Counted from the stretch's first letter, positions 1,074 to 16,654 are shown. The stretch is DNA of 43,791 nucleotides from Candidatus Heimdallarchaeota archaeon (GCA_019058275.1 JAHLVW010000072.1:1-43791), one strand, 5' to 3'. Notes: generated by a model not told the origin, from the sequence alone. Translations and numbers: made by a program.

Positions 1074-1106
1074 AATGGGGATTCTTTCCCCGTTCATTTA
1101 TTTTTC
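1074..1106 (+). terminator. hairpin + T-rich tract after ino1
   Basis: AATGGGGA-ttctt-TCCCCGTT stem (one G-U pair) followed by CATTTATTTTTC, 17 nt after the ino1 stop. Confidence 0.5.
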
Positions 1107-1161
1107 ATCACAACTCATAGAATCGGGAATCGTTAATATTGGAAAGTGTGGGTGTAATCAA

Positions 1162-2211
1162 TTGGTTATCAACAAGAATAACAAACTAACGGATCTACAA
1201 ACACTACTAGAGAGATTAAAATCCAATTCTAGTAATAATCGATTTGATGCAGTAATACAACTTGGGAAGTCAAGCTTTCAAGAAACTAACGATATTCTGA
1301 AGCAATTGATTATATCTGATCCTGAAACGATTATTCGTGAACTAGCATTAATTACTCTAACTGAAAAGATAAAACCAGAAGTTTTAGATATTGCTAAGAA
1401 AATTTTCTATAATCCATCTGAACAACCAATTATGAGGGCAAGAGCTACATGGGTTTTTAGTCAAATACAATCAAAACAAGCATTCGACTTAGCTAAAGAA
1501 GCGTTAAATGATAGAAACGAAGAAGTGGTTTATTGGGCACTAATTGGAATTATGACATTTGAAAATGCTTCAGATGCAATACCTGAAATTAGAAAACTCG
1601 CAGTTAAAAGTCGTCATTCAATTATTCGGCAAACTGCCGTTTGGACAATAGGAATGTTAGGTGATATTGAGTCCAGAGAATTATTAGAAGATAGGATGCT
1701 TATAGATACCGTTCCAATAGTTAGATTGTTATCAACTTGGGCTTTAAGAAAGATTGACTGCTTGGAATCAATTCCTAATCTTAGTAATGCTTTATCCAAG
1801 GATACTAATAAATTAACTCGAAGAGAAATTGCCTCTACAATAGGTAAAATACTGGATTTTGAAAAGCAATATGAAAGTAGTCAAGAACAGCAATCACTTT
1901 TCAGAGAAATGCAAGATATTGCTGCAAGAGTACTCATAAGAGCATTATTAGGAGATACTTCTTACGTAGTGAGAAGAACATGTGCAGAATCTTTAGGGAA
2001 AATAAGGTACAAAGGAATTCTGGAAAAACTGATAGAAGCTCTAACAACTGAAACAAATCTGTTTGTAAGAAAGGAAATAGTAAATACTCTTGGAACTATT
2101 AGTGATCCTAAAGCATTAGATATTTTGAAGAAAGCTATTAGAAGTCATTACAAAACAATTGTAGAAGCAGCAAAAGAAGCTATTAAAAAAATAAAGAAAA
2201 GTAATGAATGA
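1162..2211 (+). CDS. HEAT/PBS-lyase repeat protein
   Basis: Repeated ~31-aa units (D..VR..A...LG): NRFDAVIQLG, IIRQTAVWTIG, VVRRTCAESLG, VRKEIVNTLG. In-frame TTG at 1162 follows GGTG. The ORF-track ATG at 1075 lies inside the upstream terminator hairpin. Confidence 0.85.
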   Translation: MVINKNNKLTDLQTLLERLKSNSSNNRFDAVIQLGKSSFQETNDILKQLIISDPETIIRELALITLTEKIKPEVLDIAKKIFYNPSEQPIMRARATWVFSQIQSKQAFDLAKEALNDRNEEVVYWALIGIMTFENASDAIPEIRKLAVKSRHSIIRQTAVWTIGMLGDIESRELLEDRMLIDTVPIVRLLSTWALRKIDCLESIPNLSNALSKDTNKLTRREIASTIGKILDFEKQYESSQEQQSLFREMQDIAARVLIRALLGDTSYVVRRTCAESLGKIRYKGILEKLIEALTTETNLFVRKEIVNTLGTISDPKALDILKKAIRSHYKTIVEAAKEAIKKIKKSNE

Positions 2212-2315
2212 AATTGAAACGTTCATTTTACTTTGAATTCTTAACTAAATCAAAACAGTTTTATTACCAGAGGAGTTTAGTTGCTAGAATTAAATAAGTT
2301 AAGAGAAGATTCAAT

Positions 2316-4130
2316 ATGCATCCAATTCTGAGAGTTTTTGGCTTCATGAAAAGAAAAACATGGTTTGCATTTTCTGTTGTAATTTTCTCAGCTATTCTGG
2401 ATTCGTGTTTCACCTTATTTACTCCTTGGATTGCCCGTGAGTTAATCAATAGAGTATTTTATGATTTGGATGCAACTGCCTTGAAATTATGGTTACCAAT
2501 CTATGTTGCTACTGGATTTTTCGCAGCTATTTTTAGATTCCTTCAAAGATACATTAATGAGTATGTTTCTCAATCTTTGATTTTTGATTTAAGAAATACA
2601 CTTTATTCAAGAATTCAGAAACAATCAATTGATTTCTTTGATAGAATGGAAACAGGACAATTAATATCTCGAGGAACAAGTGATATCGAAGCGATAAGAC
2701 GATTACTTAGTATTGGTATAAGAATTTTCTTGAGAGCAATCTGGTTATATTCAGGTATCTTTATTCTTATTGGAATCATGGATTGGCAATTGATGCTGGT
2801 AGTTCTTGCATTAGCTCCTGTCATGTTTGTAATAATGTTCTCCTATGCTAAAAGAGCTAGACCACTTATGCGAGATATTCAAAATAAATTTGGAGATATG
2901 AATTCAGTTCTTGCTGAAAATGTCTATGGTTCCAGAGTTGTAAGAGCATTTGCTGCTGAAGGGTTTGAAACTGAAAAATTTGAGCAAGAAAATAAGTTAT
3001 ATTTAGATCTAAACATGAGAATGGCAAAGTTGAGAGCTTACTTAACAACTCTTTTTCCATTAATTCTTAGTATAGGATCATTCCTGTTAATTTATTTTGG
3101 CGGTAGAGGAGTAGTTACCGGTACTCTTGGAGTGGGAGACCTTATCGCAATTAATGGTTATCTTATTTTGTTACAAATGCCTACAAGGTTTTTGTCTTTT
3201 GCAATATTACATTATCAAGAAGGAACTGCTTCTCTTAATAGAATATTTGAAGTTGTAGACATGAAGAAGAAAATTAAGGAAAAAGAAAATGCAATTGAAA
3301 TGCCAAAAATCAATGGAAATATTTCCTTTGAGAATGTTACTTTTGCTTATTCAGCTGATGCTCCACCGGTTTTGAAAAATATTAATCTCGATATTCCGTC
3401 TGGTGAAACAGTAGCATTTCTTGGAACAACAGGTTCAGGGAAAAGTACAATTGTTAGTTTGGTACCGAGATTTTACGATCCAAATGAGGGTACTGTAAAA
3501 ATAGATGGGATAGATATAAGGGATGTTCAAGTAGATTCATTACGTAAACAAATTGCTATTGTTCAACAAGAAGCATTCCTATTTGCTAAAACCATTAAGG
3601 AAAACATTGCATTTGGGAAACCAGATGCTACAGAAGATGAGATCAGAAGAGTTTCAGAAATCGCTCAAGCTCATGAGTTTATTACTGAATTTCCTAATGG
3701 TTATGATACAATTGTTGGTGAACGTGGTGTGACACTATCTGGAGGTCAAAAACAAAGATTGACCATTGCTCGAGCACTATTATTGAATAATCCACTACTT
3801 ATTATGGATGATTCTTCGAGCGCTTTAGATTTTGAAACAGAGCACCAATTCCAAAATGCTATTGACGAATTGATAAAGAATCGCACAACACTAATCATTA
3901 CACAAAGACTTTCCACAATAAAATTTGCTACACGAATTGTTGTTATGGATAAAGGACAAATCGTTGAATCTGGAATGCATGAAGATTTAATGGAGCAAGG
4001 TGGTTTATACAAACACCTTTATGAAACTCAACTTTTAGAGCAAGAATTTCTACCAATTGAGAATCAAACTGAAATCGAACGCAACCTAGCAAATTCATAT
4101 ATGAAACAAACAGAAGGAGGAACTAAATAG
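2316..4130 (+). CDS. ABC exporter half-transporter (TMD+NBD), subunit with degenerate Walker B and H-switch
   Basis: 6-TM N-terminal domain; Walker A GTTGSGKS; signature LSGGQ; Walker B LLIMDD (D replaces catalytic E); switch ITQR (Q replaces H). Confidence 0.93.
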   Translation: MHPILRVFGFMKRKTWFAFSVVIFSAILDSCFTLFTPWIARELINRVFYDLDATALKLWLPIYVATGFFAAIFRFLQRYINEYVSQSLIFDLRNTLYSRIQKQSIDFFDRMETGQLISRGTSDIEAIRRLLSIGIRIFLRAIWLYSGIFILIGIMDWQLMLVVLALAPVMFVIMFSYAKRARPLMRDIQNKFGDMNSVLAENVYGSRVVRAFAAEGFETEKFEQENKLYLDLNMRMAKLRAYLTTLFPLILSIGSFLLIYFGGRGVVTGTLGVGDLIAINGYLILLQMPTRFLSFAILHYQEGTASLNRIFEVVDMKKKIKEKENAIEMPKINGNISFENVTFAYSADAPPVLKNINLDIPSGETVAFLGTTGSGKSTIVSLVPRFYDPNEGTVKIDGIDIRDVQVDSLRKQIAIVQQEAFLFAKTIKENIAFGKPDATEDEIRRVSEIAQAHEFITEFPNGYDTIVGERGVTLSGGQKQRLTIARALLLNNPLLIMDDSSSALDFETEHQFQNAIDELIKNRTTLIITQRLSTIKFATRIVVMDKGQIVESGMHEDLMEQGGLYKHLYETQLLEQEFLPIENQTEIERNLANSYMKQTEGGTK

Positions 4131-4132
4131 AG

Positions 4133-6004
4133 ATGGGCTGGAGACGAAGTGGGCATTTTGCCTCTTTAACTGAAGACGAAGAGAAGAAGGAAAGACCAAA
4201 AGTTGCTTCTGATTGGACACTAGCAAAATGGATAATGAAATATTTGTTTAAAGATTTCAGATCACTAGCCATAATTACTTTAGTCTTGGTAGGTCTAGGT
4301 TCAGTTCTAGCTTTAGCATCTCCAAAAATAATGCAAGTTATCATTGATGATGTTTTTAACACTGAATTTATTAAATCCATAGATGAGAGATTTAACCTCC
4401 TGCTAATTATGACATTAATCTTATTATCTGTTGCAATTATTACTGCAGTTATTAGTATTTTCAGAACGGTTTTATTATACAAAATTGGATATAATACAGT
4501 TAAGAAAATCAGAACAGACACATTTACTCATTTACAAAAATTATCACTCAAATTTTTTGATACCCAAGAGTCAGGCAGATTAATATCAAAAGTCACAAAT
4601 GATTGTGACAAAATTAATGAATTAATGAGTGGAGGAATAATAACTTCGTTAATTGATTTCCTAACGTTAATTGGAATTTCAATAATGCTTCTAGTTATGA
4701 ATTGGCAGTTAGCATTATGGTGCTTCTTATTTTCAATACCACCCACATTACTTATCAGTTATTTCTTCAAAAGAAGAGCTCGTAAAGCTTATCGCAAAAC
4801 GCGAAAAACTATTGCCAATGTTACTGCTAATTTGTCTGAAAGCATTTCTGGTGTAAAAGTCTCAAAATCATTTACTAGAGAAAAAAGAAACATCCAAGAG
4901 TTTCGTACTGTTAATCAAGAAAATAGAGAAGCGAATATGAAGGCAGTTGCTGTTTTTGCAACAACATTTCCCTTATTCAATTTCATAGCATCTGCTGTTG
5001 TAGGTTTCGTATACTTTTATGGTGGATGGACTCTGATTTTTGGTTCTACAGCGATTTTAAAAGCTGTAACAATAGGTGAGGCAATTGCATTCACTCAATA
5101 TGTTAGTAACTTCTTTAGACCTATTCTGAATTTAACAATGTTCTATAATACATTCCAATCTACAATGGCAGCTACAGAAAGAGTGTATGACTTAAATCAT
5201 TCTACATCAGATGTAGTTGAGAAAACAGATGCTTATATTTTACCTGAAATAAAGGGTCATGTTAAATTTGAGGATATTGTTTTTGGGTATAAGGAAAACG
5301 AATTAGTTCTAAGCAAATTCAATCTAGAAGTCTCACCAGGAGAAGCAATAGCCATAGTTGGGCCAACTGGTTCAGGGAAAACTACGATAGTAAATCTTCT
5401 GGGCAGATTTTACGAAATACTTGAAGGCAATATACTAATTGATGACCACAATATCCAAGATGTTACTTTGAATTCATTGCATAGCCAAATGGGAATAGTA
5501 CTTCAAGATCCATACTTGTTTAGTGGAACAATTGCTGAGAATATTGTTTACAATCAAAAAGATGTGCCATTTGATGATATACAAGTAGCAGCTGATTCAG
5601 TAAATGCACATGAATTTATTGAGCGAATGTCTAAAGGTTATGACACAGAGGTAGGTGAACGAGGGAGTAAACTGTCTCTAGGTCAAAGACAACTTATCTC
5701 ATTTGCTAGAGCGTTGTTACCTAATCCAAAAATACTAATCTTAGATGAAGCTACTTCTTCTGTGGATCCATACACTGAGTTATTAATCAAGAAGGCTCTT
5801 GACAAGCTTCTTTCAGGTAGAACTTCATTTATTATCGCTCACAGGTTATCAACAGTTAGAAATGCTGACAGAATTATTGTAATAAAAGATGGAGCTATTA
5901 TCGAGGAAGGAACCAATGAAGATTTACTAGCAAAGAAGGGCGAATACTATAGATTATACCAATTACAATTTAAGGATCAAGAAAATGGATCTAACGGTCA
6001 TTGA
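4133..6004 (+). CDS. ABC exporter half-transporter (TMD+NBD), partner subunit of heterodimer
   Basis: TMD; Walker A GPTGSGKT; non-canonical signature LSLGQ; canonical ILILDEATS and IAHRLST. Starts 2 nt after the partner stop, with GGAGG upstream. Confidence 0.93.
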   Translation: MGWRRSGHFASLTEDEEKKERPKVASDWTLAKWIMKYLFKDFRSLAIITLVLVGLGSVLALASPKIMQVIIDDVFNTEFIKSIDERFNLLLIMTLILLSVAIITAVISIFRTVLLYKIGYNTVKKIRTDTFTHLQKLSLKFFDTQESGRLISKVTNDCDKINELMSGGIITSLIDFLTLIGISIMLLVMNWQLALWCFLFSIPPTLLISYFFKRRARKAYRKTRKTIANVTANLSESISGVKVSKSFTREKRNIQEFRTVNQENREANMKAVAVFATTFPLFNFIASAVVGFVYFYGGWTLIFGSTAILKAVTIGEAIAFTQYVSNFFRPILNLTMFYNTFQSTMAATERVYDLNHSTSDVVEKTDAYILPEIKGHVKFEDIVFGYKENELVLSKFNLEVSPGEAIAIVGPTGSGKTTIVNLLGRFYEILEGNILIDDHNIQDVTLNSLHSQMGIVLQDPYLFSGTIAENIVYNQKDVPFDDIQVAADSVNAHEFIERMSKGYDTEVGERGSKLSLGQRQLISFARALLPNPKILILDEATSSVDPYTELLIKKALDKLLSGRTSFIIAHRLSTVRNADRIIVIKDGAIIEEGTNEDLLAKKGEYYRLYQLQFKDQENGSNGH

Positions 6005-6059: not shown

Positions 6060-7463
6060 GTGAAAAAAATGGAAGATGAAAGTAATAGAACATTTCGAGA
6101 ATTACTGCCACCTTTGAATTTATTACCTTTGCTAACATCTTATACCATGGATCATGTTGCTGTTTCAACTTATTGGATATTCTTTGGCATATTCCTAAGC
6201 GAAGAAGTTACTGATTCATATCTAGATATAGCGGTTGTTTTAGCAGTGCCTGCAATTATTTCAATTATTGGTACAACAATACTTAGCTCCTTTTCTGATA
6301 AAACAGGTCGTCGTAAAGAGCTTATTTTATTCGCAAAAATTGCTTTAATGACTCAATACATCCTATTGCTATTCTTTCGTGGATCCATTTGGAGTATCCT
6401 AGCAATTTTAGGAATCTTTGGGATTTTCACTCAGATCTATTATAGTCAACACAGTGCATTGATTACTACTATTTGTCCACCAGATAGAAAAGGACAAGTT
6501 TCTAGCTATCAAGTTTTTTTTGCAAGTGCTGGTTGGATGATAGGAAGTGCTTTATCAGATATTATTTATGATTGGCAAGGCATTACAGGCAGTTTAGGAT
6601 TTGCTGCTGGATTTGCTTTGTTAGCTGGTATTGTTGCTATGGTTTCAACTTCAAAACCTTATAGTCAAAGAGAAGAATTAATTGATGATTCCATACTTAA
6701 TGAAAGCAAAATTAGTGATGTAGTAATTAAGAACCAGACGATGCGTACTGCTGAGTCAATAAAATCAACTGAAAGTACTGCTTCCTATTTTGAGATATTT
6801 AAAAGAAAAAAAGTTATTTCATTGTTAATCGCATTAGCAATTTTAGATTTCGGATTTGGACCGTTTAATGTGATTACATCAGTATATTTCAAAAGAGTCT
6901 ATATGTTAAATTTCAATGATTCAGAACTAGCAAATACTTTGATTGCTAAATCAAATACTATTGCTACAGCAATTGGAATGGTAATTCTTCTAGTTAGTGG
7001 TTCAATTCTTGATAGAACAGGTCGTAAACCAATTTTCATATTATCAATTGTTGCTTATCCTATTTTATATACCTTGATGTTTACATTATCTGAACATCCT
7101 TGGGCGTTGTTTTGCATTTATTTGTATCCATTATATGCGGTGAAAGTACCTACAGCAAATACAGTAATGGCAGATTTAACAGCTGAGAATGAACGTGGAA
7201 GGGGTATGAGTTTAATAAATATTGAGCAAATTGTATTCGGTAATCTTGGAGCGATTTTTGGATGTTATATTGCTGATGTTTTTCCAGGAGATATTATACC
7301 AAGATTCGTTCCTGAGGGGATATATATTATACCCATCTTTCCAATGATATTTGGAATAATTGCATTAATATTGGGAATATTGTTAGTAAAAGAAACCAAT
7401 CCAAGGGTTCTAGCGAAGTTGGATGCTAAAGAAAAAATGGCAAGTGGTTTAAAGAACCTATAA
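6060..7463 (+). CDS. MFS transporter
   Basis: About 12 hydrophobic segments in two halves; motif A in both halves (SDKTGRRK, GSILDRTGRK); ERGRGMS. True start may be ATG 6069. Confidence 0.88.
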   Translation: MKKMEDESNRTFRELLPPLNLLPLLTSYTMDHVAVSTYWIFFGIFLSEEVTDSYLDIAVVLAVPAIISIIGTTILSSFSDKTGRRKELILFAKIALMTQYILLLFFRGSIWSILAILGIFGIFTQIYYSQHSALITTICPPDRKGQVSSYQVFFASAGWMIGSALSDIIYDWQGITGSLGFAAGFALLAGIVAMVSTSKPYSQREELIDDSILNESKISDVVIKNQTMRTAESIKSTESTASYFEIFKRKKVISLLIALAILDFGFGPFNVITSVYFKRVYMLNFNDSELANTLIAKSNTIATAIGMVILLVSGSILDRTGRKPIFILSIVAYPILYTLMFTLSEHPWALFCIYLYPLYAVKVPTANTVMADLTAENERGRGMSLINIEQIVFGNLGAIFGCYIADVFPGDIIPRFVPEGIYIIPIFPMIFGIIALILGILLVKETNPRVLAKLDAKEKMASGLKNL

Positions 7464-10400
7464 AGTGACAGCATTCTCGACTACTTCTTCGCAAGAAATC
7501 TCTCGAAGTACTTCCTTGATGATATCAGGAGGGATACGCATTTCATTTGCAACTTGCATTGGATCGAATATTGAAGCCTTCTTTCTTTCACGATTTAGTA
7601 TCAAAGAAATTTCTGCTTTCAGTCTATCAAATGAATAGAATATTTTTTGTTCATTATCTAGTATTGCCATATAGAGAACTGAAAGGAATTCTCGACGAAC
7701 TATTGAAACTGTATCGTTGTGCTGTATTCCAAACTCATTTGCAACAGTTTCCAATTCGATTCTACCCCAAAGATCATATTCTGAATAAAGATAAGAACGT
7801 ATAGCTTGGATTTTATGTAACGAGATAAAAACATCCTTGTTGATTGGTTGTCCTTCTATTCTTCTAGCAATTTGCAAACTTTCTAAAAGGAAATCAGATA
7901 ATGGTAAAGATCTGTCTGTAGTAGAGAAGATTGTTCTATCGAAAGTGCCTTTATTGGTTAATTCATAGACAATTCTATACTTTGTATGTTCGATGATTTT
8001 TCGGATTCTTCCATGTGAAATGTATGGTAATGATGCTAGCACATCCCAAGCAGCTCCCACTTTTGTTGAGTTTATTAATTTCAAAACTCTAGCAAATGTT
8101 TTCGTGGGTTTTGATTTCTTCATTTCAGCAAGTTCCATAACTCGCAGATAAATTGTCTCGAGTGAATCCATATCACAACTTGCCATTCTATTTACAGCTG
8201 CTTTTGTTAGAAGTTCAATTATGACAGATTCTATATTCTTTCTTGTTTTCATTATTCGAATATATTTCAAAATTGCATTGTCATAAGCATTTGCTGCATC
8301 CTTTGTGGTACCAATATCTTCCAGTATCTTTCCAGCCAATGTAATGAATTTATTGGTCAAATTTATTGGAATTCTTGGTTGATCTATAAAAGCAATTCCG
8401 CGGTTAAAGCACTTTCTTGCAATTTCGTTTGCTTTTTGATAATTCTTAATTCTTATTGCTGAATCAGAGGCTATTTTATAACATTGATAGGCAATTGTTA
8501 CATCTGCATCCCATTCTCGTGTTTGGAAGATTCTATTTACCAAACGATTAGAACTTTCATCATCATTTGCTAGGTCAAATGCTTCAACAGCAATATCATA
8601 GAATATCATTGATTCAAGGATTTTTCCTTCATTAACTAATCTATCACCAGCACTTAGAGCAAACAATCCAATATTCTTCAATTCAGTTTGCATTGATAGT
8701 TTTGTGTTCAATTTAAGTGATGTATCAAGAAAACTTATTGAATCATTGTATTTCTTTTTCTCAAGTAATTCTTGAGCAGTATGGAATGAGCTTTCAGCAA
8801 TTTCATTTGCTATGTTGGAGTTTCGTAAATCGATCATAAGAGTTGCTGTATGTCTTAAGCGGAAAGCTGATTCTCTGTTTCCACGTTTTATTAATTTCTG
8901 TAAGTTTTTCTGAGCTTCTGTAATATCTTTTTCAATTTCAACTTGATTCTTAGATAAGGCTAAAATCCTCATACAAGCTTCAACAATCTTTTGGCCTAAA
9001 CTATAATTTTGATCAGATTTACTTACTTTCTCACCAAATGCTGTTAATGCTTTAATATAATCTTTGATTAGTTCATACTCGATTGTTGCTCTATTAGAAT
9101 TAGGGACTTCATATGCTTCCAAACCACTAGTTATATCATCTAATGTTGAAATAGTTGTTCTAGCATTATTAATAGATGATTGCTTGGCGAAATCAAGCAT
9201 AGCTAAAACAACTGTTGAGATTAAATTATCGCTTTGTGTTTGTATTGCAATATCTCTTGCTGTTAATAGTGCTTCATACCCTCTTAGTGATTGCATGTTA
9301 TTAACCAAATCTTTAGAACCGAGCTTTATGAATTCCTTTCCTATTTTCTCGATATAATCCATGTTTTGGATTTCTTGAAACATCTGATAGCAATAACCTA
9401 GAAGTCTATAGTTTATCTCTAAATCCGCTTCAAGGTCTAATATTTGTAGTTGTTCAAATGTTTCTTTTCCAATTAATGTCAACAAGTCGATATTCTCAGC
9501 TTCTTTAGCCAATCTGATAGCGTAATCTAAAAAGAAGAATCCCAACTGTGGCTTATTTAGCATAATATCAGCATTAGCCCTTCTTGTTAACACTAGTATC
9601 ATTTGTGAAATGTTTTCATCTTGGTTTGTTGCTTTGTAGAATCTTAATGCATCTCTACTAATTTTGCCTATCATGTTCCATTCAACATCTAGGGTTATTT
9701 TCAGAGCCTCAATGAGTGTTTCACTAACTAAAGGTAATAAAGCTTGTTTTGAAATTTCTTGATTTGTGACAATCTCAAGAACTTTAGCACCTGCAATAGA
9801 ATTCTTCTTCCGAATAATATCTAAAGCTAACTTCAAGACTAAATCAATAATTTGTTTAATTTCTTCAGGATCTGGACTGCTTTTCGCCAATTCAAATGAT
9901 CTATTTAAGAAGAAGATTCCAATTGCTGATTTTCGATTTGGTAAATTCTGACTGGCTGCGGAAAGATAAATGTTTATTATCAAAGATAGCAAATCAAATC
10001 TAGAAATTTTTTCTACTAACAATCTTGCTTTCTCGAGAATATGAACTGCTTTTGTTAATTCATTTTCTTCCATAAATCTTCTCGCTGAATCGATAGTTTG
10101 TTTGGTGATTGTTACTGCAAGATCGATATTTTTATCTTTTAAGTAGTAATCTACAGCTTTAATTGCAAAGATTATTGATTCATCAGCTTTTCCAACATTT
10201 AAGTGGTTTGCAGAAATTACTGAACAAGTTTTCCCAGCTTTAGTATAAGATTCAGCACACTCGAAGATCTTTATTGCTAAAGTATATATTTCATTAGATT
10301 TTTCTAAATCACTCTGAGCTAATTCCTGAGCTTTTTGGATTGTTATTTCTCCAAGTTCTATACAACCAGAGATGTTTTTTGTTTGCATTTCAATATCAAT

Positions 10401-13400
10401 TGCTTTATCAATTGCTAGTTTTCCGCTATTCAAGTATCCTGTTTCTGCTAAAATGAATCCTGAATATAGATAGATTTTAGCTGCTTCATGAGCTCCTTGC
10501 ATTTCATTGGCAATGTTTGCTGCTTGATCTATCAATTCAATACCATTAGTTTCATCACCATTTTGAATGAAACTTTCACTTAAGTTTAAACAAAGATTCT
10601 TTGCCTTTTCTTGATTAGCGGATTTTTTATAATATTCAATTGCAGTAAAAATGAAATTCTTTGTTAATTCAAACTCATTTTTTTCAAACAATTCATTAGC
10701 TATACTTGCTATTCGATCTCCTTGTTCAAGGAGTATTTCTGGATCGCTTTCCAGTAAAGGTAATATTTGCTTAAATGCGTTATTTGTTGAATTATACATA
10801 CCAGCATTCATGAGATTAGCGATTCTTAGGTTATTGATTTCAATAGCAAATTCAATGCTCGTTGAAATACTATAATTAGCTACTTGCTCCCACAGCTGTT
10901 CTCCTTCCATTATTTTTCCATTATTAATTACCTCTTGAGCTTTAACAACTAAAACATGAATAGCTTTCTTTTGTTCCTCTATATTACCCGTTTTCTGATG
11001 AACAGTAACAATTTGACCAGTTACAATAGAAGCATTTTGATAATCCTTCATTTCATACAGAAGGTCAGCTATTTCCACAAGTATTTTTACAGCTGCTTCA
11101 AATTCATTGGCAACCATTAATGTGTCAGAAGCTAATAAAACTAGTTTTATACCCTTAACTACTCGATTCAGCTTTAGCAATGCATTACATGATTTCATAT
11201 AGATTTCAGAAGCGCTTATGGGTTTACCTAGTCGTAGATGTATTCCTGTTGCTAGGTCTATCAAATGCAATCCTAGTTCTATTTCACTTTCTTGTATGAA
11301 AACAATCGCATGATTTGATAGTTCATCAGCAACATTTGGTGATTTTGTCTTTTTATCTTGCTGCTCAAGTTCATTTACTGCTTGTAAGAAGACATTGTAT
11401 GCTGTTTGATAATCTTTTGTAGTTGCAAAAGTTCTAGCTTCTTTCATAAAAATATCTACTACAATTTCTGTTAGATTTGAATGTTTAGCTAAATCTATTG
11501 CAGCATCAAAACATGATAGTGCAAATTTACGATATTCTTCAGGATTATGAGTAAGTGCTTGTGAACCAATTTCAGCTGTTTTTAAAGATGAAACTGCTAA
11601 TTTTTCAAGATTTTTTGATTCCGCATATGATTTGTTTGCTAATTCTATTTGTCGATAAGCATCTTGCCAATGTTCTCTACGAATATTTACTTCAGCCAAT
11701 GCTTGGAAAGCATCTCCTGATCTTTCTATATCATTAATTTGTAAAAAGATTTGAGCAGCAGTTTCAATTAATTCTTCACCATAAATGAAATTTGCTTTAT
11801 CCAAAAAGAGATAACCTTGTGCTAAAGCAGCTTCACCTGCTTCATCAAGATTCCCTACTTGGTTTAGAATTTTAATTCCTGATCTTATAAACTCTGATGC
11901 TTCATCAAACATTTCTTTACTGTCTCGTAAACTACCACCTTGAACAATGATTAGTCGACCCAATTTTGCTAAATAATCCTTTTCCCCTTCTAGGTTGTTT
12001 TTTGCATAATCATGAAATTCTTTAACCGAATATAGATCGCCAATGTCAAGAAACATGTTAGATGCTTCAGAAATAATCAGATCTTGGATTTCAAGGTTAA
12101 CTGGAGAGCTGAATTCCATTGCAGCTATATAAAGATGTTTTCCAAAAATCACCTCTTCATTTCTAATAGCTGTTTTAGCATTTTCAGAACAATAATATGC
12201 TAATTCTATGATAGGATCAGTCATTCCTAAGCTAAAATATGCTCCAACAGCTTTTCTAAGTAAATCAATTCCTTCTTCTATAAAATTATAAGAAATTAAT
12301 ATTTTTGATGCTAGAGAGAGTTTCTCTGCAAAGATATCAGGACTTGTATCGCCAGTCAGAATTTTAGTTATTTGCATTAATAATTCTTTAGCTAAATCAT
12401 TTTGATTATTATCAAATAACAACTGACTGTTATCTATCAAAATCTGTGAGGCTTCTACATTTTCGCTAATATTTGTAAGAGCTAATACTCCTTGCTCGAG
12501 ATAATCCCTACCTAAACTGAAATTATGATCAGAAATCACCAACATTTTTCCAATTGATGAAAGCTTATTAGCTATCCTCTTTGTCTCTTCAGGATAACTT
12601 CTTCCAAGTGTCTTGGTTGCATAAACAAGATACTCTAAAGCAAGCTCTTTTTGATTTATATAAACAGCATAGTCAACAAAATCATGTATAATATTAACTT
12701 CTGTCAATGAATCCTTTTGTTGAGCGCATAGAATAGCGTCAGATAATAACTGTTTAGCTAATTCAATATTTTTATCGCCCAATTTATTTTTAGCAGCGAT
12801 TATTAATGGTGTAATTGTACTAATAATTTCATCTTCCTTTTGAACATTTTTGTATAATTTCGCAGCTTCAACTAAGTGAAATGATGCTCCATCAAAATGC
12901 TCTAAACCTATTAGTGATTCACCAAATGCTTTGTGTGAATTTGCAGCTCCTAAAACACTACCAGCTTTTAGAAGATTCTCAACGGCTTTAATTGAATAAG
13001 TTTCTACTTCCTTAATTTGATTTACTTTCATAAATTCGATGGTTATATTCGTAAGATTTGTACCAATTTGTTCATATGCCTGAACACCTTCCAGAATCTC
13101 TAATACACTTTCAATGAACAACAAACTTACTTCTTGTTCTGCAGAAGAAACAAGTTTTAAGGTTCTTTTAAACATTATATTAGTAATTTCAGTAAATTTC
13201 TCATTCAATTTTCCAAATAGATATGCTTTTGAAGAACTTTTGTAATCTTCTAATGCAAGCTTAGTCTTGTTTATTGAATATAGATACTCAGCTTTTTCTT
13301 TGTAAAAGTCACCCACGAAATCTAAATCAACCTTTTCTATTTGATGAACAACTGAGAAGAATTCTAATCCTATCTCAAATTTATCATTTATTTTAACTAA

Positions 13401-14372
13401 CGCATAGGCTTTTTCAATTATTTTTTCAGCTAAAGTTTTTGCAGTATCTTTACTTTCAATACTTATTGCAAGCTGAAGTGATTTATCATAATAAATTTTA
13501 GATGAAGAGTATTTTTTCTTTTCATACATTAATTCAGCATAATCAGAAAGTATAGATGCAGCTTCAACCATCAATTCAGGTATTTGCATTTCTTTTGCTT
13601 TTGTAATACCATGTTCTATTAATTCTCCTCCAGGATCAGTTTCACTTAGAGTTTCTTTCAGTGCTTTGATTAATTTCTTGTTACCTTTACCAGATAGAAT
13701 TTCATGTGAATAAAGAAAAATCTTTTTTGTTGCTATTGAAGCTTCGTGTATTAGATCATTTTTCTTGCAAAAGTCAATGACATTATCAAATACTTCTAAA
13801 CCCTCATTGACAAATCCTGCTTCTAATAATGAAGTAAATGCTTCTATATTTCTCTCAACTAATTCTTCGAATCTATTTATTTCTATAAAAAGATCTGAGG
13901 CTTGAGCTAAGTATTCTTCACCTAACTTTCTACTTTCAGCTTTTTTGTTAGTGATTAATGAAAATGCATAGGTAAATAGATAGTTCCCTTTTTCTAACAA
14001 AGCATTTTCAACGCCTTGCTCTAAGATTTTTGTTACCATTATTTTTTTATCAATAATCTCTATGAGATTTTGATATTGTTTTTTCGAGCTAGCAACTTCA
14101 ATTAGATGATCTAAAGGTTTTATTGCTTTTGAAAAAATAGTTTTTCGTTCATCACCAGTTGATATGTTCTCAAATACGAAAACAATATCAATTATTAGTG
14201 ATTCAATGTTGCCTTTTTCTGCAGTCTCTAAAGCCTTAAGAAGTGGCGCTTTTGCTGAATCTGTATCACCCACTTCTAGTAATTCTTTGGCAATGAGTAA
14301 GTAATTATCTGCAGCATTTTTCCATTTTCCTTTTTCTTCAAAAGCTTTTGCTTTATCCATTAGCTGGGACAT
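7458..14372 (-). CDS. giant SNAP/TPR-like alpha-solenoid protein (2304 aa) with C-terminal tandem winged-helix/PCI-like domains
   Basis: Uninterrupted 6.9-kb ORF with ATG preceded by GAGGT. Helical-hairpin repeats with small-residue motifs (AADNY, AANSH..G, EAGEA, EAAKIY, AANAYDNA, A..LY/F); no TM or signal peptide. C-terminus GRIELETVANEFGI and FDPMQVANEMRIP resemble HTH/WH. Confidence 0.75.
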   Translation of the reverse strand: MSQLMDKAKAFEEKGKWKNAADNYLLIAKELLEVGDTDSAKAPLLKALETAEKGNIESLIIDIVFVFENISTGDERKTIFSKAIKPLDHLIEVASSKKQYQNLIEIIDKKIMVTKILEQGVENALLEKGNYLFTYAFSLITNKKAESRKLGEEYLAQASDLFIEINRFEELVERNIEAFTSLLEAGFVNEGLEVFDNVIDFCKKNDLIHEASIATKKIFLYSHEILSGKGNKKLIKALKETLSETDPGGELIEHGITKAKEMQIPELMVEAASILSDYAELMYEKKKYSSSKIYYDKSLQLAISIESKDTAKTLAEKIIEKAYALVKINDKFEIGLEFFSVVHQIEKVDLDFVGDFYKEKAEYLYSINKTKLALEDYKSSSKAYLFGKLNEKFTEITNIMFKRTLKLVSSAEQEVSLLFIESVLEILEGVQAYEQIGTNLTNITIEFMKVNQIKEVETYSIKAVENLLKAGSVLGAANSHKAFGESLIGLEHFDGASFHLVEAAKLYKNVQKEDEIISTITPLIIAAKNKLGDKNIELAKQLLSDAILCAQQKDSLTEVNIIHDFVDYAVYINQKELALEYLVYATKTLGRSYPEETKRIANKLSSIGKMLVISDHNFSLGRDYLEQGVLALTNISENVEASQILIDNSQLLFDNNQNDLAKELLMQITKILTGDTSPDIFAEKLSLASKILISYNFIEEGIDLLRKAVGAYFSLGMTDPIIELAYYCSENAKTAIRNEEVIFGKHLYIAAMEFSSPVNLEIQDLIISEASNMFLDIGDLYSVKEFHDYAKNNLEGEKDYLAKLGRLIIVQGGSLRDSKEMFDEASEFIRSGIKILNQVGNLDEAGEAALAQGYLFLDKANFIYGEELIETAAQIFLQINDIERSGDAFQALAEVNIRREHWQDAYRQIELANKSYAESKNLEKLAVSSLKTAEIGSQALTHNPEEYRKFALSCFDAAIDLAKHSNLTEIVVDIFMKEARTFATTKDYQTAYNVFLQAVNELEQQDKKTKSPNVADELSNHAIVFIQESEIELGLHLIDLATGIHLRLGKPISASEIYMKSCNALLKLNRVVKGIKLVLLASDTLMVANEFEAAVKILVEIADLLYEMKDYQNASIVTGQIVTVHQKTGNIEEQKKAIHVLVVKAQEVINNGKIMEGEQLWEQVANYSISTSIEFAIEINNLRIANLMNAGMYNSTNNAFKQILPLLESDPEILLEQGDRIASIANELFEKNEFELTKNFIFTAIEYYKKSANQEKAKNLCLNLSESFIQNGDETNGIELIDQAANIANEMQGAHEAAKIYLYSGFILAETGYLNSGKLAIDKAIDIEMQTKNISGCIELGEITIQKAQELAQSDLEKSNEIYTLAIKIFECAESYTKAGKTCSVISANHLNVGKADESIIFAIKAVDYYLKDKNIDLAVTITKQTIDSARRFMEENELTKAVHILEKARLLVEKISRFDLLSLIINIYLSAASQNLPNRKSAIGIFFLNRSFELAKSSPDPEEIKQIIDLVLKLALDIIRKKNSIAGAKVLEIVTNQEISKQALLPLVSETLIEALKITLDVEWNMIGKISRDALRFYKATNQDENISQMILVLTRRANADIMLNKPQLGFFFLDYAIRLAKEAENIDLLTLIGKETFEQLQILDLEADLEINYRLLGYCYQMFQEIQNMDYIEKIGKEFIKLGSKDLVNNMQSLRGYEALLTARDIAIQTQSDNLISTVVLAMLDFAKQSSINNARTTISTLDDITSGLEAYEVPNSNRATIEYELIKDYIKALTAFGEKVSKSDQNYSLGQKIVEACMRILALSKNQVEIEKDITEAQKNLQKLIKRGNRESAFRLRHTATLMIDLRNSNIANEIAESSFHTAQELLEKKKYNDSISFLDTSLKLNTKLSMQTELKNIGLFALSAGDRLVNEGKILESMIFYDIAVEAFDLANDDESSNRLVNRIFQTREWDADVTIAYQCYKIASDSAIRIKNYQKANEIARKCFNRGIAFIDQPRIPINLTNKFITLAGKILEDIGTTKDAANAYDNAILKYIRIMKTRKNIESVIIELLTKAAVNRMASCDMDSLETIYLRVMELAEMKKSKPTKTFARVLKLINSTKVGAAWDVLASLPYISHGRIRKIIEHTKYRIVYELTNKGTFDRTIFSTTDRSLPLSDFLLESLQIARRIEGQPINKDVFISLHKIQAIRSYLYSEYDLWGRIELETVANEFGIQHNDTVSIVRREFLSVLYMAILDNEQKIFYSFDRLKAEISLILNRERKKASIFDPMQVANEMRIPPDIIKEVLREISCEEVVENAVTL

Positions 14373-14503
14373 CTTTAAACCTCAAATGTTCTATCTACAT
14401 GTCCTAATTTATACGTATATAATTCTAAAGATAGCACAATTTTTATTATGAATATGTGAAAACGACTCATAAGTTTTTAGTAGGAGGAAAATTTGGTTAA
14501 TCT

Positions 14504-16654
14504 CTATATATTATTTTCCGGAGGAGGTGGTAAGGGGATTAACATTCCATTTTCTAAGTATTTGATTAATACTATTAAAACATCTTCTTTTGACACATTG
14601 ATTTCTTCATTTTTAAAAACAACATCAATCAATTCTGTAACATAGAAGACTTCATCATCCGTTTGATTTAGAAATTCAGTATAAGCTTTAGTTAATTTCT
14701 TCTCATTTTGGGTGATTGCTGTTAAACGCATTCTCTTTAGATCTAGTTTTAATGGATATAGATATTCAAGTCTCAAATGCTTTTCTAATAAATCAGTTGC
14801 TCCAGTAAAAGTAGATATAAAACCACTAAAATCAGCAAGATCAGTTTTGTATTTTGCTTCAAATTCATTCATGAAAATCTTGATGCGTTTCTTAAGATGT
14901 GTACTTAATTTTTCAGTAACGAGTAATGCTGTTTTTGATTGTTCTCCCTCGTAAATAATTATCCAGAAACCTTCTCTGCCAATTTCACTGAAAATTCCTA
15001 CTCGTTTCTCTGTTTCACCAGACATTTCTTCAGTAAAAGTACCAACAGCACTTAGAAATCCACTGGTTAAGGAGACATCTATATCCTTACCAAAGCCTTG
15101 ACTGAATAATGGAACTCCTGAATGTGAGTGGATTAAGATTACATGCCTAATTTTGAGTATATCATTGAAAAATTCAACACCAACATCAGGATCAGCTTCT
15201 AGATCCATCGGTAGGAAGTAATTGGCTTCCTGCTCCACATCAGGTTCTTGTTCTTTATCCTCTTGCCATTCTATTTCTTTATCTTCAGCAATTCCTGCAA
15301 GTTTGGTTTCTACTTTGGATTTAACTTTATCAATACCAGTTAGTTTTGGTTGACCAGCTGTTAATGAATCATATGGTTGATAAGGAGCATAAGGAGAATC
15401 AACAGAATAGGGGCTACCATGCGATTGAGCATCAATTTGCTTTGGTCTGGTTATACCTTCTTGCTTACTTATAGGAGCTACATATTGCCAACAGCTATAG
15501 CAGTACCATCTACGATATTGTTCAATGAATCTGACCTGTGATTGGCAATTTGGACAGAAAGCATTTGTTGTATCTGGTGCATGTACAGCAGCTCCTCCTT
15601 GTTGTGATGCACCATCACTACTCTGAAATGGTATTAAATCAGCATTAGGTTTCTCATTTGTTTTGTCCCGTGTGAAGCTAAAAGCAACTATTCTTCTTTT
15701 ATCTATTGAGAAGATTAAATCATTTGATCTGTTTCCGGTTAGATCACCTATTCTTAAATCATTTATTGCGCTATAACCTTCACAGGTCTCTATTGTATTT
15801 TGTCTTAGAATATTTATTGTCCCATTCGCTGTTCCCACAACTACTTCTAGTTGACGATCATTATCAATATCACCAACTGTCCCGCAAGTAATTGCACCAT
15901 CTAATTTGTGTATTGACATCAATCGATTTCTCTTAAAGATGCTGAGTCTACCAGAATACTCGCCAACCATCACTTCTGATATTCCATCTCGATCGATATC
16001 TCCACTAAAGCAAAAACTGGGTTTGGTTTCTATCTTAAATTCACCAATAAGATCAAATTTCTGTAATTGGGGTCTGAATTCAATTTCCTTAAACAATCCA
16101 CCCTTTGATCCAGCTATAAAGCCCATTTGACCATTCCCATTATAATCTCCAGTAGTTATATGACTAACTGGATGCTGGAATATTTTTCCGAGTGAGAAAC
16201 CCCTGATTTTATCCCATCGATGTTTTCTACCAGGGATTCTTTCAATCATAACAACTTCGCCATTTCCACAGCCAACAATAATTTCTGAGAGTTTATTTCC
16301 ATTTAAATCTCCAGGAGCTGTAGCTAAAACAGCGGATGGTAACCTTATGCCATCTTTAATATCCTTACTAAAGAAAGGTTTGCCATTTCTAGAATTAACT
16401 CGAACTACTCCTTTAATATCGCCAGTTACTAACTCAAAACCTCTATCTAGGCTTGTTCTAGCAACACACATGGCATTTATTTTTTCATTTATCTTTACTG
16501 CATAGTTAGACATATGCTTTGGGTGAACAATAGTGATGTCAGTTCCACTCTTTTCCAATCTAGCAACCATTATTTCTGAAATACCATCTACATTGAAATC
16601 ATGAGTTAATAACGAATGAAAGCTTTGAGTTGCTTCCTCAAGAGTTTGTTGCAA
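14504..16654 (-). CDS. FG-GAP/VCBS beta-propeller + Zn ribbon + longin-like + winged-helix-like multidomain protein
   Basis: Repeats DFNVDGISEI, GDLNGNKLSEIIVG, GDYNGNGQMGFIAG, GDIDRDGISEVMVG, GDIDNDRQLEVVVG, GDLTGNRSNDLI; CPNC-x17-CYSC with QYRRWYC; HVILIHSHSGVPLF...LTSGFLSAVGTFTEEM...FEAKY longin-type pattern. TTG start; no signal peptide. Confidence 0.8.
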   Translation of the reverse strand: MQQTLEEATQSFHSLLTHDFNVDGISEIMVARLEKSGTDITIVHPKHMSNYAVKINEKINAMCVARTSLDRGFELVTGDIKGVVRVNSRNGKPFFSKDIKDGIRLPSAVLATAPGDLNGNKLSEIIVGCGNGEVVMIERIPGRKHRWDKIRGFSLGKIFQHPVSHITTGDYNGNGQMGFIAGSKGGLFKEIEFRPQLQKFDLIGEFKIETKPSFCFSGDIDRDGISEVMVGEYSGRLSIFKRNRLMSIHKLDGAITCGTVGDIDNDRQLEVVVGTANGTINILRQNTIETCEGYSAINDLRIGDLTGNRSNDLIFSIDKRRIVAFSFTRDKTNEKPNADLIPFQSSDGASQQGGAAVHAPDTTNAFCPNCQSQVRFIEQYRRWYCYSCWQYVAPISKQEGITRPKQIDAQSHGSPYSVDSPYAPYQPYDSLTAGQPKLTGIDKVKSKVETKLAGIAEDKEIEWQEDKEQEPDVEQEANYFLPMDLEADPDVGVEFFNDILKIRHVILIHSHSGVPLFSQGFGKDIDVSLTSGFLSAVGTFTEEMSGETEKRVGIFSEIGREGFWIIIYEGEQSKTALLVTEKLSTHLKKRIKIFMNEFEAKYKTDLADFSGFISTFTGATDLLEKHLRLEYLYPLKLDLKRMRLTAITQNEKKLTKAYTEFLNQTDDEVFYVTELIDVVFKNEEINVSKEDVLIVLIKYLENGMLIPLPPPPENNI

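What the first reader, a model, noticed from the sequence alone, without database searches (positions are those of the whole stretch)
7458..16654. Candidate proto-coat/tether module: beta-propeller-longin gene followed by a giant alpha-solenoid gene
Seen: two co-oriented minus-strand genes 131 nt apart, both lacking signal peptides and TMs. Together they encode an FG-GAP propeller, a Zn ribbon, a longin-like domain, winged-helix-like domains and more than 2000 aa of helical repeats. Two Rab-like GTPases and a second longin gene lie in the same window. Established: propeller + solenoid + longin + small GTPase is the parts list of eukaryotic coats and GTPase-regulating scaffolds (COPI/AP, BBSome with BBS2/7 propellers and BBS4/8 TPRs, KICSTOR-GATOR1). 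Inference: the pair may form an undescribed archaeal membrane-trafficking or nutrient-signalling scaffold.
Basis: inference. Interest (0 to 1): 0.85.

Follow-up and report, generated by a model that had tools for sequence, protein, structure and literature searches.

The report
Propeller-roadblock protein beside giant solenoid
One small family of Heimdall-type Asgard archaea keeps two neighbouring genes for large soluble scaffold proteins, a seven-bladed propeller ending in a roadblock/winged-helix docking module and a 2,304-residue helical-repeat protein; the parts look eukaryote-like, but nothing ties them to vesicle coats or nutrient-signalling complexes, and the evidence that they bind each other is weak.

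Summary
Both genes are real: 14504-16654(-) encodes 716 aa and 7458-14372(-) encodes 2304 aa, 131 nt apart, with no signal peptide or TM helix. Gene A has an FG-GAP propeller, a four-Cys zinc ribbon and a C-terminal alpha-bb-alpha-bbb-alpha domain plus winged helix. That domain is roadblock/LC7-type rather than classical longin. Gene B is a SNAP/TPR-like hairpin solenoid with a conserved winged-helix end laid out like a PCI protein.

The two Ras-family GTPases lie 18-20 kb away behind unrelated genes. I found no second longin gene. The propeller's best structural matches are ITFG2 and BBS2, but only just above generic WD40 propellers. The solenoid matches only generic TPR proteins.

Both genes occur in one taxonomic family out of 400 Asgard genomes. 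Their adjacency is conserved, but so is the whole neighbourhood. Gene A's tail belongs to a large unnamed Asgard family (710 cluster representatives). That family mostly forms the cytoplasmic end of single-pass surface proteins and is occasionally fused to Ras-like GTPases.

A predicted tail/C-terminus interface got weak support only. Each genome also has a second ~2310-aa paralogue with no propeller gene beside it.

Verdict: a lineage-specific adaptor-plus-platform pair, not a demonstrable proto-coat. Orthologous loci were examined earlier in this scan with the same outcome.

The parts
14504..16654 (-). Gene A: 716-aa soluble protein with propeller, zinc ribbon, roadblock-like domain and winged helix.
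   Evidence: ORF. 29 homologue clusters at 55-100% identity, all Asgard/Heimdall MAGs. AF2 model.
15665..16627 (-). FG-GAP beta-propeller, about aa 10-330. Seven D/N-x-D/N-x-D/N-G motifs; six blades are modelled confidently and the seventh lies in a low-pLDDT stretch.
15467..15571 (-). Four-cysteine zinc ribbon (aa 362-396), flanked by disordered linkers at 293-361 and 397-479; the second linker is P/Y/Q-rich.
   Evidence: C367, C370, C385 and C388 invariant in 24 orthologues. Short beta-strands with pLDDT 67-70. Zn_ribbon_19 at E 0.055.
14834..15190 (-). Roadblock/LC7-superfamily ('longin-like') domain, aa 489-607. This is the most conserved part of gene A. It carries an invariant S-G-x-P loop between strands b1 and b2.
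   Evidence: AF2 topology alpha-bb-alpha-bbb-alpha. hhalign of the family profile against the genome's Robl_LC7 proteins gives Prob 80.7%, E 1.3e-5. Conservation 0.93.
14534..14800 (-). Winged-helix-like domain (aa 619-707), followed by an invariant PPPP C-terminus.
   Evidence: AF2. Paralogue L016 has Pfam HTH_45 right after its roadblock-like domain. Invariant P709-P712.
14373..14503 (-). A-B intergenic region: 131 nt here and 125-144 nt in relatives. It has a conserved ~20-nt block (CTACTAAAAACTTATGAGT) followed by a T-run just after gene A's stop. AT-rich, TATA-like sequence and a GAGGT lie before gene B's ATG.
   Evidence: Sequence. Alignment of 10 orthologous spacers. Whether this is one or two transcription units is undetermined.
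7458..14372 (-). Gene B: 2304-aa soluble alpha-solenoid.
   Evidence: ORF. 23 homologue clusters at 40-100% identity, full-length members 2302-2306 aa. Found only in family f1 among 400 Asgard genomes.
8613..13796 (-). Body of diverged SNAP/TPR-like helical-hairpin repeats, about aa 193-1920.
   Evidence: hhalign between 192-aa segments gives up to 94% probability. Pfam SNAP 28.8 bits at aa 820-970. AF2 hairpin solenoid for aa 1450-2115. Atlas feature hits to archaeal SNAP/TPR clusters at 0.85, which is weak.
7461..8612 (-). Unique and most conserved C-terminal region (aa 1921-2304): last hairpins plus winged-helix-like domains from about aa 2120. The layout is PCI-like.
   Evidence: Conservation 0.78-0.81. 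No internal-repeat similarity. AF2 pLDDT about 85-95. Atlas shape hits to Rpn6/PSMD11 PCI proteins with TM-by-row 0.46-0.47, below 0.5.

Best explanation
These are two lineage-restricted cytosolic scaffold proteins of one Heimdall-type family.

Gene A is a soluble member of a large, unnamed, Asgard-wide family defined by a ~215-aa roadblock-plus-winged-helix tail. In most members the tail sits about 20 residues inside the membrane, at the cytoplasmic end of single-pass surface proteins. In a few members it is fused to a Ras-like GTPase or a HerA ATPase.

By analogy with MglB and LAMTOR roadblock platforms, I infer that the tail dimerises and docks a small GTPase or another roadblock protein. 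In gene A it is coupled to a propeller and a zinc ribbon, which offer further protein-binding surfaces.

Gene B is a very long SNAP/TPR-like hairpin solenoid ending in a conserved winged-helix region, a PCI-like layout. It most likely acts as an assembly platform.

The most likely working model is an adaptor (A) that docks through its tail on the conserved C-terminal region of the platform (B). It is a local invention built from common folds. It is not a coat and not an ancestor of KICSTOR, the BBSome or COPI.

Shown: gene structure, domains, distribution and the family context of the tail. Inferred: dimerisation, GTPase docking and A-B binding.
For: - Domains.
- Tail family: 710 cluster representatives at E<=1e-3 among 1.84 billion proteins. 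Of the 149 scanned top representatives, 109 have a TM helix ending a median of 19 aa before the tail.
- Full-length members carry extracellular-type domains (Big_1, MG2/MG4, TSP3, SBP_bac_5) plus signal-peptide-like N-termini. Two of 149 are Ras-GTPase fusions and two of 38 are HerA fusions.
- The tail matches nothing in Pfam, NCBIfam or PDB sequences. Its nearest Atlas clusters are unnamed Asgard proteins.
- A Robl_LC7 gene lies directly upstream of a tail paralogue in this genome.
- Co-restriction: full-length gene A was found only in genus g1, in all 11 genomes counting the window's own. Gene B was found only in family f1, in all 12 genomes counting the window's own, with 0 of 388 elsewhere apart from one marginal hit.
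- A and B are adjacent in every contig that holds both: plus where one glyoxalase gene is inserted between them.
- The most conserved stretches are gene A's roadblock domain and gene B's C-terminus.
- Complex prediction, B 1850-2304 with A 480-716: verdict 'weak support'. Score 0.54 (runs 0.48-0.59), best of 3 controls 0.00. The mark was reached by 58 of 80 solved complexes and 2 of 110 mismatched pairs, but at 0.60 or under by only 7 of those 80 and by both mismatches that passed. The runs agree in at least 85% of contacts and the partner's pLDDT is at least 82. My own alignments were used, so the counts hold only roughly.
Against: - No experiment or expression data exist.
- The complex score falls in the band that the tool calls more often wrong than right unless the guess was likely beforehand.
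- Adjacency is uninformative because the flanking genes are conserved as well.
- The 125-144-nt spacer has a T-run after gene A and TATA-like sequence before gene B, which fits separate transcription.
- The tail family is pan-Asgard while gene B is confined to one family, so gene B cannot be the tail's general partner.
- The second giant paralogue has no propeller-tail gene beside it.
- The roadblock assignment rests on one profile-profile match (Prob 80.7%) and on topology. The tail was not folded and fold-searched on its own.
Confidence: 0.45

Rival explanations
1. The two genes are unrelated neighbours. Each is a lineage-specific scaffold with its own partners, and they sit together only because the whole chromosomal block is syntenic within this family.
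For: - The thioredoxin, MFS and ABC-exporter flanks are conserved along with the pair.
- A glyoxalase gene sits between A and B in the most divergent locus.
- The spacer is long and has terminator-like and promoter-like features.
- The paralogous giant stands alone among housekeeping genes.
- In genus g2 (G091, 75% complete) gene B was found but no gene A orthologue was found with this query.
Against: - The two genes have an identical, narrow phyletic range.
- They keep the same strand and order in every contig that holds both.
- The predicted interface got a weak pass against zero-scoring controls.
Confidence: 0.3
2. One reading: the pair is an archaeal proto-coat, tether or GTPase-regulating scaffold, homologous or analogous to COPI/AP, the BBSome or KICSTOR-GATOR1, and works with the Rab-like GTPases of the window.
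For: - Propeller, solenoid and roadblock/longin folds are all present.
- Foldseek's six best propeller hits are KICSTOR chains, followed by BBS2, BBS1, BBS9 and BBS7. BBS2 is the top VIA-align hit.
- Rare Ras-GTPase fusions of the tail exist.
- The genome encodes many Rag/Gtr1-like GTPases.
Against: - Itfg2 and BBS2_Mid Pfam hits are below cut-off in gene A. They are stronger in other FG-GAP proteins of this genome, one of which carries extracellular-type TSP3 repeats, so they reflect generic blades.
- The solenoid has no specific match to any coat, tether or SZT2-like protein.
- The GTPases are 18-20 kb away, and they are absent from the 10-kb flanks of orthologous loci.
- The pair is confined to one family, so it cannot be ancestral to eukaryotic complexes.
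Confidence: 0.1
3. Gene B is a PCI-type platform for a proteostasis or regulatory assembly (lid-, CSN-, eIF3- or UFL1-like), and gene A is one of its winged-helix-bearing subunits. Membranes and GTPases are not involved.
For: - Gene B has a solenoid followed by a winged helix. Atlas shape hits go to Rpn6/PSMD11 (TM-by-row 0.46-0.47) and to an Asgard DDRGK/UFL1/PCI cluster.
- Both proteins end in winged-helix-like domains.
- The weakly supported interface involves those regions.
Against: - All TM scores are below 0.5.
- No Pfam PCI hit was found.
- At 2304 aa, gene B is far longer than any PCI subunit.
- The family context of the tail points to membrane-proximal roles.
Confidence: 0.1

Closest known systems
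Roadblock/LC7/MglB-LAMTOR platforms and the multidomain Asgard roadblock/longin proteins, including GTPase-roadblock fusions (Tran et al. 2024, PMC10933270)
   Same: Same alpha-bb-alpha-bbb(-alpha) topology. The b1-b2 loop has G-x-P, as in the 'GlPI' motif of Robl_LC7. There is a profile-profile match to this genome's Robl_LC7 proteins. Rare fusions to Ras-like GTPases exist.
   Different: No Pfam Robl_LC7 hit. The domain is always followed by a winged helix. In 109 of the 149 scanned top members it sits just inside a TM helix, an architecture I did not find described in the papers read. Neither dimerisation nor GTPase binding has been tested.
ITFG2 (KICSTOR; PDB 9v6e, 9o5a) and BBS2/BBS7 (BBSome; PDB 6vbu) propellers
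   Same: Cytosolic seven-bladed propeller with FG-GAP-like blades. These are the top Foldseek and VIA-align matches. Sub-threshold Pfam hits to BBS2_Mid, Beta-prop_BBS7 and Itfg2.
   Different: 12-15% identity, with margins over generic WD40 that are small. No KPTN, KICS2, SZT2 or BBS partner was identified. The Pfam signal is generic to FG-GAP blades. The C-terminal architecture is different.
Protocoatomer proteins (clathrin/COPI/COPII/NPC/IFT-A/HOPS type)
   Same: A beta-propeller and an alpha-solenoid are encoded next to each other.
   Different: Two separate genes, with a zinc ribbon, roadblock domain and winged helix after the propeller. The solenoid matches IFT-A TPR subunits only as one among many generic TPR hits with TM<0.2. 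No membrane-binding element was found.
SNAP/TPR-like archaeal repeat proteins and PCI-domain scaffolds (Rpn6/PSMD11)
   Same: Helical-hairpin repeats with a SNAP Pfam hit. The C-terminal end is a solenoid followed by a winged helix.
   Different: 2304 aa with a strikingly fixed length (2302-2306). There is a full-length colinear paralogue at 18% identity. No PCI Pfam hit, and TM<0.5.

Membership tests
FG-GAP repeat propeller (Pfam PF13517/PF01839) | FG-GAP repeats over the curated cut-off that fold into a propeller | tested here: met
   FG-GAP_3 at 41.7 bits (cut-off 26.9) and FG-GAP at 36.3 bits (cut-off 22.1). AF2 beta-blades at 10-292. Seven Ca-loop-like motifs in the sequence.
ITFG2 / KICSTOR | Membership of Pfam Itfg2 (PF15907) over cut-off | tested here: not met
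   13.9 bits, E 0.033, against a cut-off of 27. The genome-wide best Itfg2 hit is a different FG-GAP protein.
ITFG2 / KICSTOR | Propeller structurally closest to ITFG2, clearly above other propellers | tested here: inconclusive
ITFG2 / KICSTOR | Partner subunits: an SZT2-like giant, KPTN, KICS2, and GATOR1 (NPRL2) | tested here: inconclusive
   Gene B's C-terminal 855 aa match only generic solenoids. The Pfam NPR2 search of the genome found nothing, but its control rang nowhere either. KPTN and KICS2 were not searched.
BBSome (BBS2/BBS7) | BBS2_Mid or Beta-prop_BBS7 over cut-off, together with the BBS2-type platform and coiled-coil architecture | tested here: not met
   23.8 and 22.2 bits against a cut-off of 27. 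The downstream architecture is zinc ribbon, roadblock and winged helix. BBS2_Mid scores higher in other FG-GAP proteins of the genome, one of which carries TSP3 repeats.
Protocoatomer | N-terminal beta-propeller followed by an alpha-solenoid in one polypeptide | tested here: not met
   Propeller and solenoid are in separate ORFs 131 nt apart. In one relative a gene is inserted between them.
Protocoatomer | Specific structural similarity of the solenoid to coat, NPC or tether subunits | tested here: inconclusive
   The best Foldseek hits are CTR9, IFT-A TPR subunits, Ski3, OGT and karyopherins, with TM 0.08-0.25. Only residues 1450-2304 were modelled.
Roadblock/LC7 (longin-roadblock superfamily) | alpha-bb-alpha-bbb topology and homology to Robl_LC7 | tested here: met
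   AF2 topology at 489-607. hhalign of the 45-member tail profile against 7 Robl_LC7 proteins of this genome gives Prob 80.7%, E 1.3e-5 over 81 columns. No direct Pfam hit, and the domain was not fold-searched alone.
Roadblock/LC7 (longin-roadblock superfamily) | Dimeric platform that binds a small GTPase | not testable with these tools
   The only indirect evidence is 2 Ras-GTPase fusions among 149 family representatives.
Classical longin domain (bb-alpha-bbb-alpha-alpha) | No N-terminal helix and two C-terminal helices | tested here: not met
   The model has an N-terminal helix (489-500) before b1, as in roadblock domains. One paralogue gives a sub-threshold Fuz_longin_1 hit at E 0.014.
PCI-domain scaffolds | Helical repeats capped by a winged helix, recognised by Pfam PCI | tested here: inconclusive
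   The layout is present. Atlas shape hits to Rpn6/PSMD11 have TM-by-row 0.46-0.47. No Pfam PCI hit.

The most novel reading that the evidence does not exclude
The roadblock-plus-winged-helix tail is an Asgard-wide, undescribed receptor-to-switch docking module. On this reading, gene A is a soluble adaptor in this family. It would pair through the tail with the cytoplasmic ends of surface receptors, or with a Ras- or Rag-like GTPase, and recruit the giant platform B to the membrane. That would make a Ragulator/KICSTOR-like membrane-proximal signalling scaffold invented independently in archaea.
Probability: 0.12. Interest if true: 0.8.

Novelty: new variant of a known kind. Interest (0 to 1): 0.45.

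Why it matters
If A and B do form a complex, this would be one of very few archaeal cases where a roadblock-type docking module, a propeller and a giant solenoid act together. It would give a tractable system for asking how Asgard cells wire surface proteins and small GTPases to large cytosolic platforms.

The wider tail family may be the more valuable lead. It is unnamed, Asgard-only and mostly sits just inside the membrane on single-pass surface proteins.

For eukaryogenesis the pair itself says little. It is confined to one family, and its similarity to KICSTOR, BBSome or coat subunits is at the level of common folds.

Tried and rejected
- Profile of 45 tails against all PDB chain sequences: nothing (best E 0.83).
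- NCBIfam for A, B and the paralogue: nothing meaningful.
- VIA-align wide search with the whole gene A model: the list was filled by propellers, so the tail was not tested.
- Second longin or roadblock gene in the window: not found with Pfam or with my tail and Robl_LC7 HMMs.
- Is the 659-aa protein near the giant paralogue a gene A analogue? No similarity.
- A TPR-plus-tail protein of the same genome (L020) as a Rosetta stone for B plus tail: its TPR part is unrelated to gene B.
- G091 (genus g2): the contig ends inside the giant gene, and no gene A orthologue was found with this query in a genome that is 75% complete. This is uninformative.
- L023: the contig starts inside gene B, so the upstream gene is unknown.
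- Pfam NPR2 in the genome: no hit, but the control genomes rang nowhere either, so this says nothing about absence.
- Expression: no RNA holder was listed for this stretch.
- Propeller similarity to the receptor-type member P0059 is repeat-level only (BLASTP 1e-7 in several registers). A direct origin of gene A from a receptor by loss of the signal peptide and TM helix remains a guess.
Full report
**The observation.**
Gene A is 14504-16654(-), 716 aa, with a TTG start that matches the MQQTLE start of its orthologues. Gene B is 7458-14372(-), 2304 aa. The gap between them is 131 nt. Neither protein has a signal-peptide-like N-terminus, and neither has a 19-residue window reaching Kyte-Doolittle 1.7.

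**Gene A.**
- Pfam gives FG-GAP_3 (1.8e-10) and FG-GAP (5e-9) over cut-off. BBS2_Mid, Beta-prop_BBS7 and Itfg2 are all below cut-off.
- An alignment of 24 orthologues (57-81% identity to gene A) shows four invariant cysteines (C367, C370, C385, C388) and an invariant PPPP C-terminus.
- The AF2 model has mean pLDDT 64, with folded parts at 70-90. It shows beta-blades over 10-292, a disordered linker, a small zinc ribbon (362-396) and a second disordered, P/Y/Q-rich linker. Then comes an alpha-bb-alpha-bbb-alpha domain (489-607) and a winged-helix-like domain (619-707).
- Seven D/N-x-D/N-x-D/N-G motifs imply seven blades. The last blade falls in a poorly modelled stretch.
- The 489-607 domain has the roadblock topology, with an N-terminal helix, rather than the classical longin order. 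A 45-member profile of the tail aligns to this genome's own Robl_LC7 proteins with hhalign Prob 80.7%, E 1.3e-5 over 81 columns. The alignment includes the G-x-P loop between b1 and b2.

**The propeller's look-alikes.**

The genome's best Itfg2 and BBS2_Mid Pfam hits belong to other FG-GAP proteins, not to gene A. One of these carries bacterial TSP3 repeats. A same-genus receptor-type paralogue of the tail family also gets a BBS2_Mid hit; it has a signal-peptide-like N-terminus and a TM helix. So the 'ITFG2/BBS2-like' signal reflects generic FG-GAP blades. It is a fold-level resemblance, not family membership.

**The tail is the informative part.**
- Across 400 Asgard genomes, full-length gene A occurs only in the window's own genus (11 of 11 genomes). 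Residues ~494-708 alone match in 391 of 400 genomes, inside open frames of 250-1960 aa.
- An exhaustive search of 1.84 billion cluster representatives finds 710 proteins at E<=1e-3 and 177 at E<=1e-10. The tail is nearly always C-terminal.
- Of the 149 top representatives scanned, 109 have a TM helix ending a median of 19 residues before the tail.
- Full-length members carry signal-peptide-like N-termini and extracellular-type domains (Big_1, MG2/MG4, TSP3, SBP_bac_5, LVIVD, FG-GAP). A minority are soluble: standalone ~250-aa forms, two Ras-GTPase fusions and HerA fusions.
- The tail has no Pfam, NCBIfam or PDB-sequence match. Its nearest ESM-Atlas clusters are unnamed Asgard proteins.
- In this genome, one tail paralogue lies directly downstream of a Robl_LC7 gene and carries a Pfam HTH_45 winged helix after its roadblock-like part.

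Gene A is therefore a soluble member of a family that mostly forms the inner end of single-pass surface proteins. I did not find this architecture described in the papers I read on Asgard roadblock/longin proteins.

**Gene B.**
- There are 23 homologue clusters, all from Heimdall-type MAGs, at 40-100% identity. Full-length members have a strikingly fixed length of 2302-2306 aa.
- AF2 on residues 1450-2304 gave a confident model (pLDDT 89.7, pTM 0.82). It has about 32 helices in a hairpin solenoid, followed from about residue 2120 by winged-helix-like units.
- Segment-against-segment hhalign shows diverged internal repeats from about 193 to 1920. The first ~190 and last ~380 residues are unique.
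- The C-terminal 400 residues are the most conserved part.
- Scanned alone, residues 820-970 pass the Pfam SNAP cut-off.
- Foldseek finds only generic solenoids (CTR9, IFT-A TPR subunits, Ski3, OGT, karyopherins, TTC7) at TM 0.08-0.25.
- The Atlas shape search adds PCI-type proteins (Rpn6/PSMD11, TM-by-row 0.46-0.47) and an Asgard DDRGK/UFL1/PCI cluster, all below 0.5.

So gene B is a SNAP/TPR-like platform with a PCI-like end. No specific link to coats, tethers or SZT2 was found.

**Distribution and linkage.**
- The C-terminal region of gene B, used as a single sequence and as a profile that includes its paralogue, is found only in the window's taxonomic family: all 12 genomes, counting the window's own. 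Elsewhere there is one marginal hit among 388 genomes.
- Each of those genomes also carries a second, colinear paralogue of 2308-2319 aa at 17-20% identity. Here it is G000:C115, 2311 aa, BLASTP 2e-27. It lies among housekeeping genes with no propeller-tail gene beside it.
- A and B are adjacent and co-oriented wherever both lie on one contig. In the most divergent locus a glyoxalase gene sits between them.
- The flanking thioredoxin, MFS and ABC-exporter genes are conserved as well, so adjacency does not discriminate between linkage and plain synteny.
- The spacer is 125-144 nt. It has a conserved ~20-nt block and a T-run after gene A's stop, and AT-rich, TATA-like sequence before gene B. Separate transcription is at least as likely as an operon.
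- No RNA data set holds the region.
- The two Ras-family GTPases are real, but they are 18-20 kb away behind more than 15 unrelated genes. They are absent from the 10-kb flanks of orthologous loci.
- The genome has many Rag/Gtr1-like GTPases, all elsewhere.

**Direct test of binding.**
The verdict was 'weak support'.
- Score 0.54 (runs 0.48, 0.54, 0.59); best of three controls 0.00.
- The mark was reached by 58 of 80 solved complexes and 2 of 110 mismatched pairs. At 0.60 or under it was reached by only 7 of those 80 and by both mismatches that passed.
- The runs agree in at least 85% of contacts, and the partner's pLDDT is at least 82.
- My own alignments were used, so the counts hold only roughly.

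This raises my odds that A and B bind from perhaps 0.2 to about 0.35. It does not establish binding.

**Mechanism.**
Most likely (0.45), gene A is a soluble adaptor. Its roadblock-plus-winged-helix tail would dimerise or dock on a partner, as roadblock platforms do (established for MglB and LAMTOR; inferred here). Gene B would be a long assembly platform whose conserved winged-helix end receives the tail.

Because the tail family is pan-Asgard and gene B is not, the tail's general partner must be something else. Plausible candidates are a small GTPase or another roadblock protein.

Rivals:
- unlinked neighbours (0.3);
- a PCI-type proteostasis or regulatory assembly (0.1).

**Novelty and verdict.**
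The folds are known, and multidomain roadblock/longin proteins and solenoids are known to be abundant in Asgard archaea (PMC10933270; bioRxiv 10.64898/2026.10.28.762692). New here are three things:
- the soluble propeller, zinc ribbon, roadblock and winged-helix architecture;
- the fixed-length 2304-aa solenoid with a twin paralogue;
- the membrane-proximal context of the tail family.

This is a new variant of known kinds. It is lineage-restricted and is not an ancestor of eukaryotic complexes.

Orthologous loci in other genomes were examined earlier in this scan with the same outcome: observation confirmed, interpretation partly supported. My analysis reached the tail-family result before I read those notes. 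It adds the paralogous giant, the repeat map, the spacer comparison and the weakly supported interface.

Noticed in passing
G000:C115 (locus L028:6609-13544, + strand): A second giant solenoid of 2311 aa, colinear with gene B at 18% identity. Every genome of the family has one at nearly the same length (2308-2319 aa). It is flanked by Beta-CASP RNase, GHMP kinase and Alg9-like glycosyltransferase genes. Why two such divergent paralogues keep the same length is unexplained.
   Followed up: partly
G000:C105:1370-1618 and 1768-3039 (loci L047/L016): A Robl_LC7 gene lies directly upstream of a 424-aa protein that carries the same roadblock-like tail followed by a Pfam HTH_45 winged helix. This may be a roadblock heterodimer pair.
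   Followed up: no
window 14440-14490 (minus strand, just after gene A's stop): A ~20-nt block (CTACTAAAAACTTATGAGT) followed by a T-run is conserved in the A-B spacer of 10 related genomes, while the rest of the spacer varies. It could be a terminator or a regulatory element.
   Followed up: partly
window 14504-14533 and 15215-15466 (gene A): Gene A has an invariant C-terminal PPPP run and a P/Y/Q-rich disordered linker (SPY...PYQPY). Both could be short linear binding motifs, for example for profilin-, SH3- or WW-like readers.
   Followed up: no
Proteins P0060 and P0066 (metagenomic, 452-458 aa): An N-terminal Ras-family GTPase is fused to the roadblock-plus-winged-helix tail. These are the only 2 such fusions among 149 family representatives, and they make natural candidates for testing whether the tail regulates a GTPase.
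   Followed up: partly
window 35711-36484 (-): A 257-aa helical protein with no Pfam family lies between the two Ras-family GTPase genes. It is not a roadblock or longin domain by my profiles.
   Followed up: partly
window 1075-6004 and locus L023: The block of a HEAT-repeat protein plus two ABC exporter genes stays downstream of gene B across the relatives whose loci reach that far, which is part of why adjacency is uninformative. The MFS gene at 6060-7463 is missing in one relative.
   Followed up: no
G000:C85:3-2120 and G000:C1:99881-102067 (loci L055, L056): Two further FG-GAP propeller proteins of about 700-730 aa score higher on BBS2_Mid and Itfg2 than gene A does. One of them carries TSP3 repeats, so it is probably extracellular.
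   Followed up: partly
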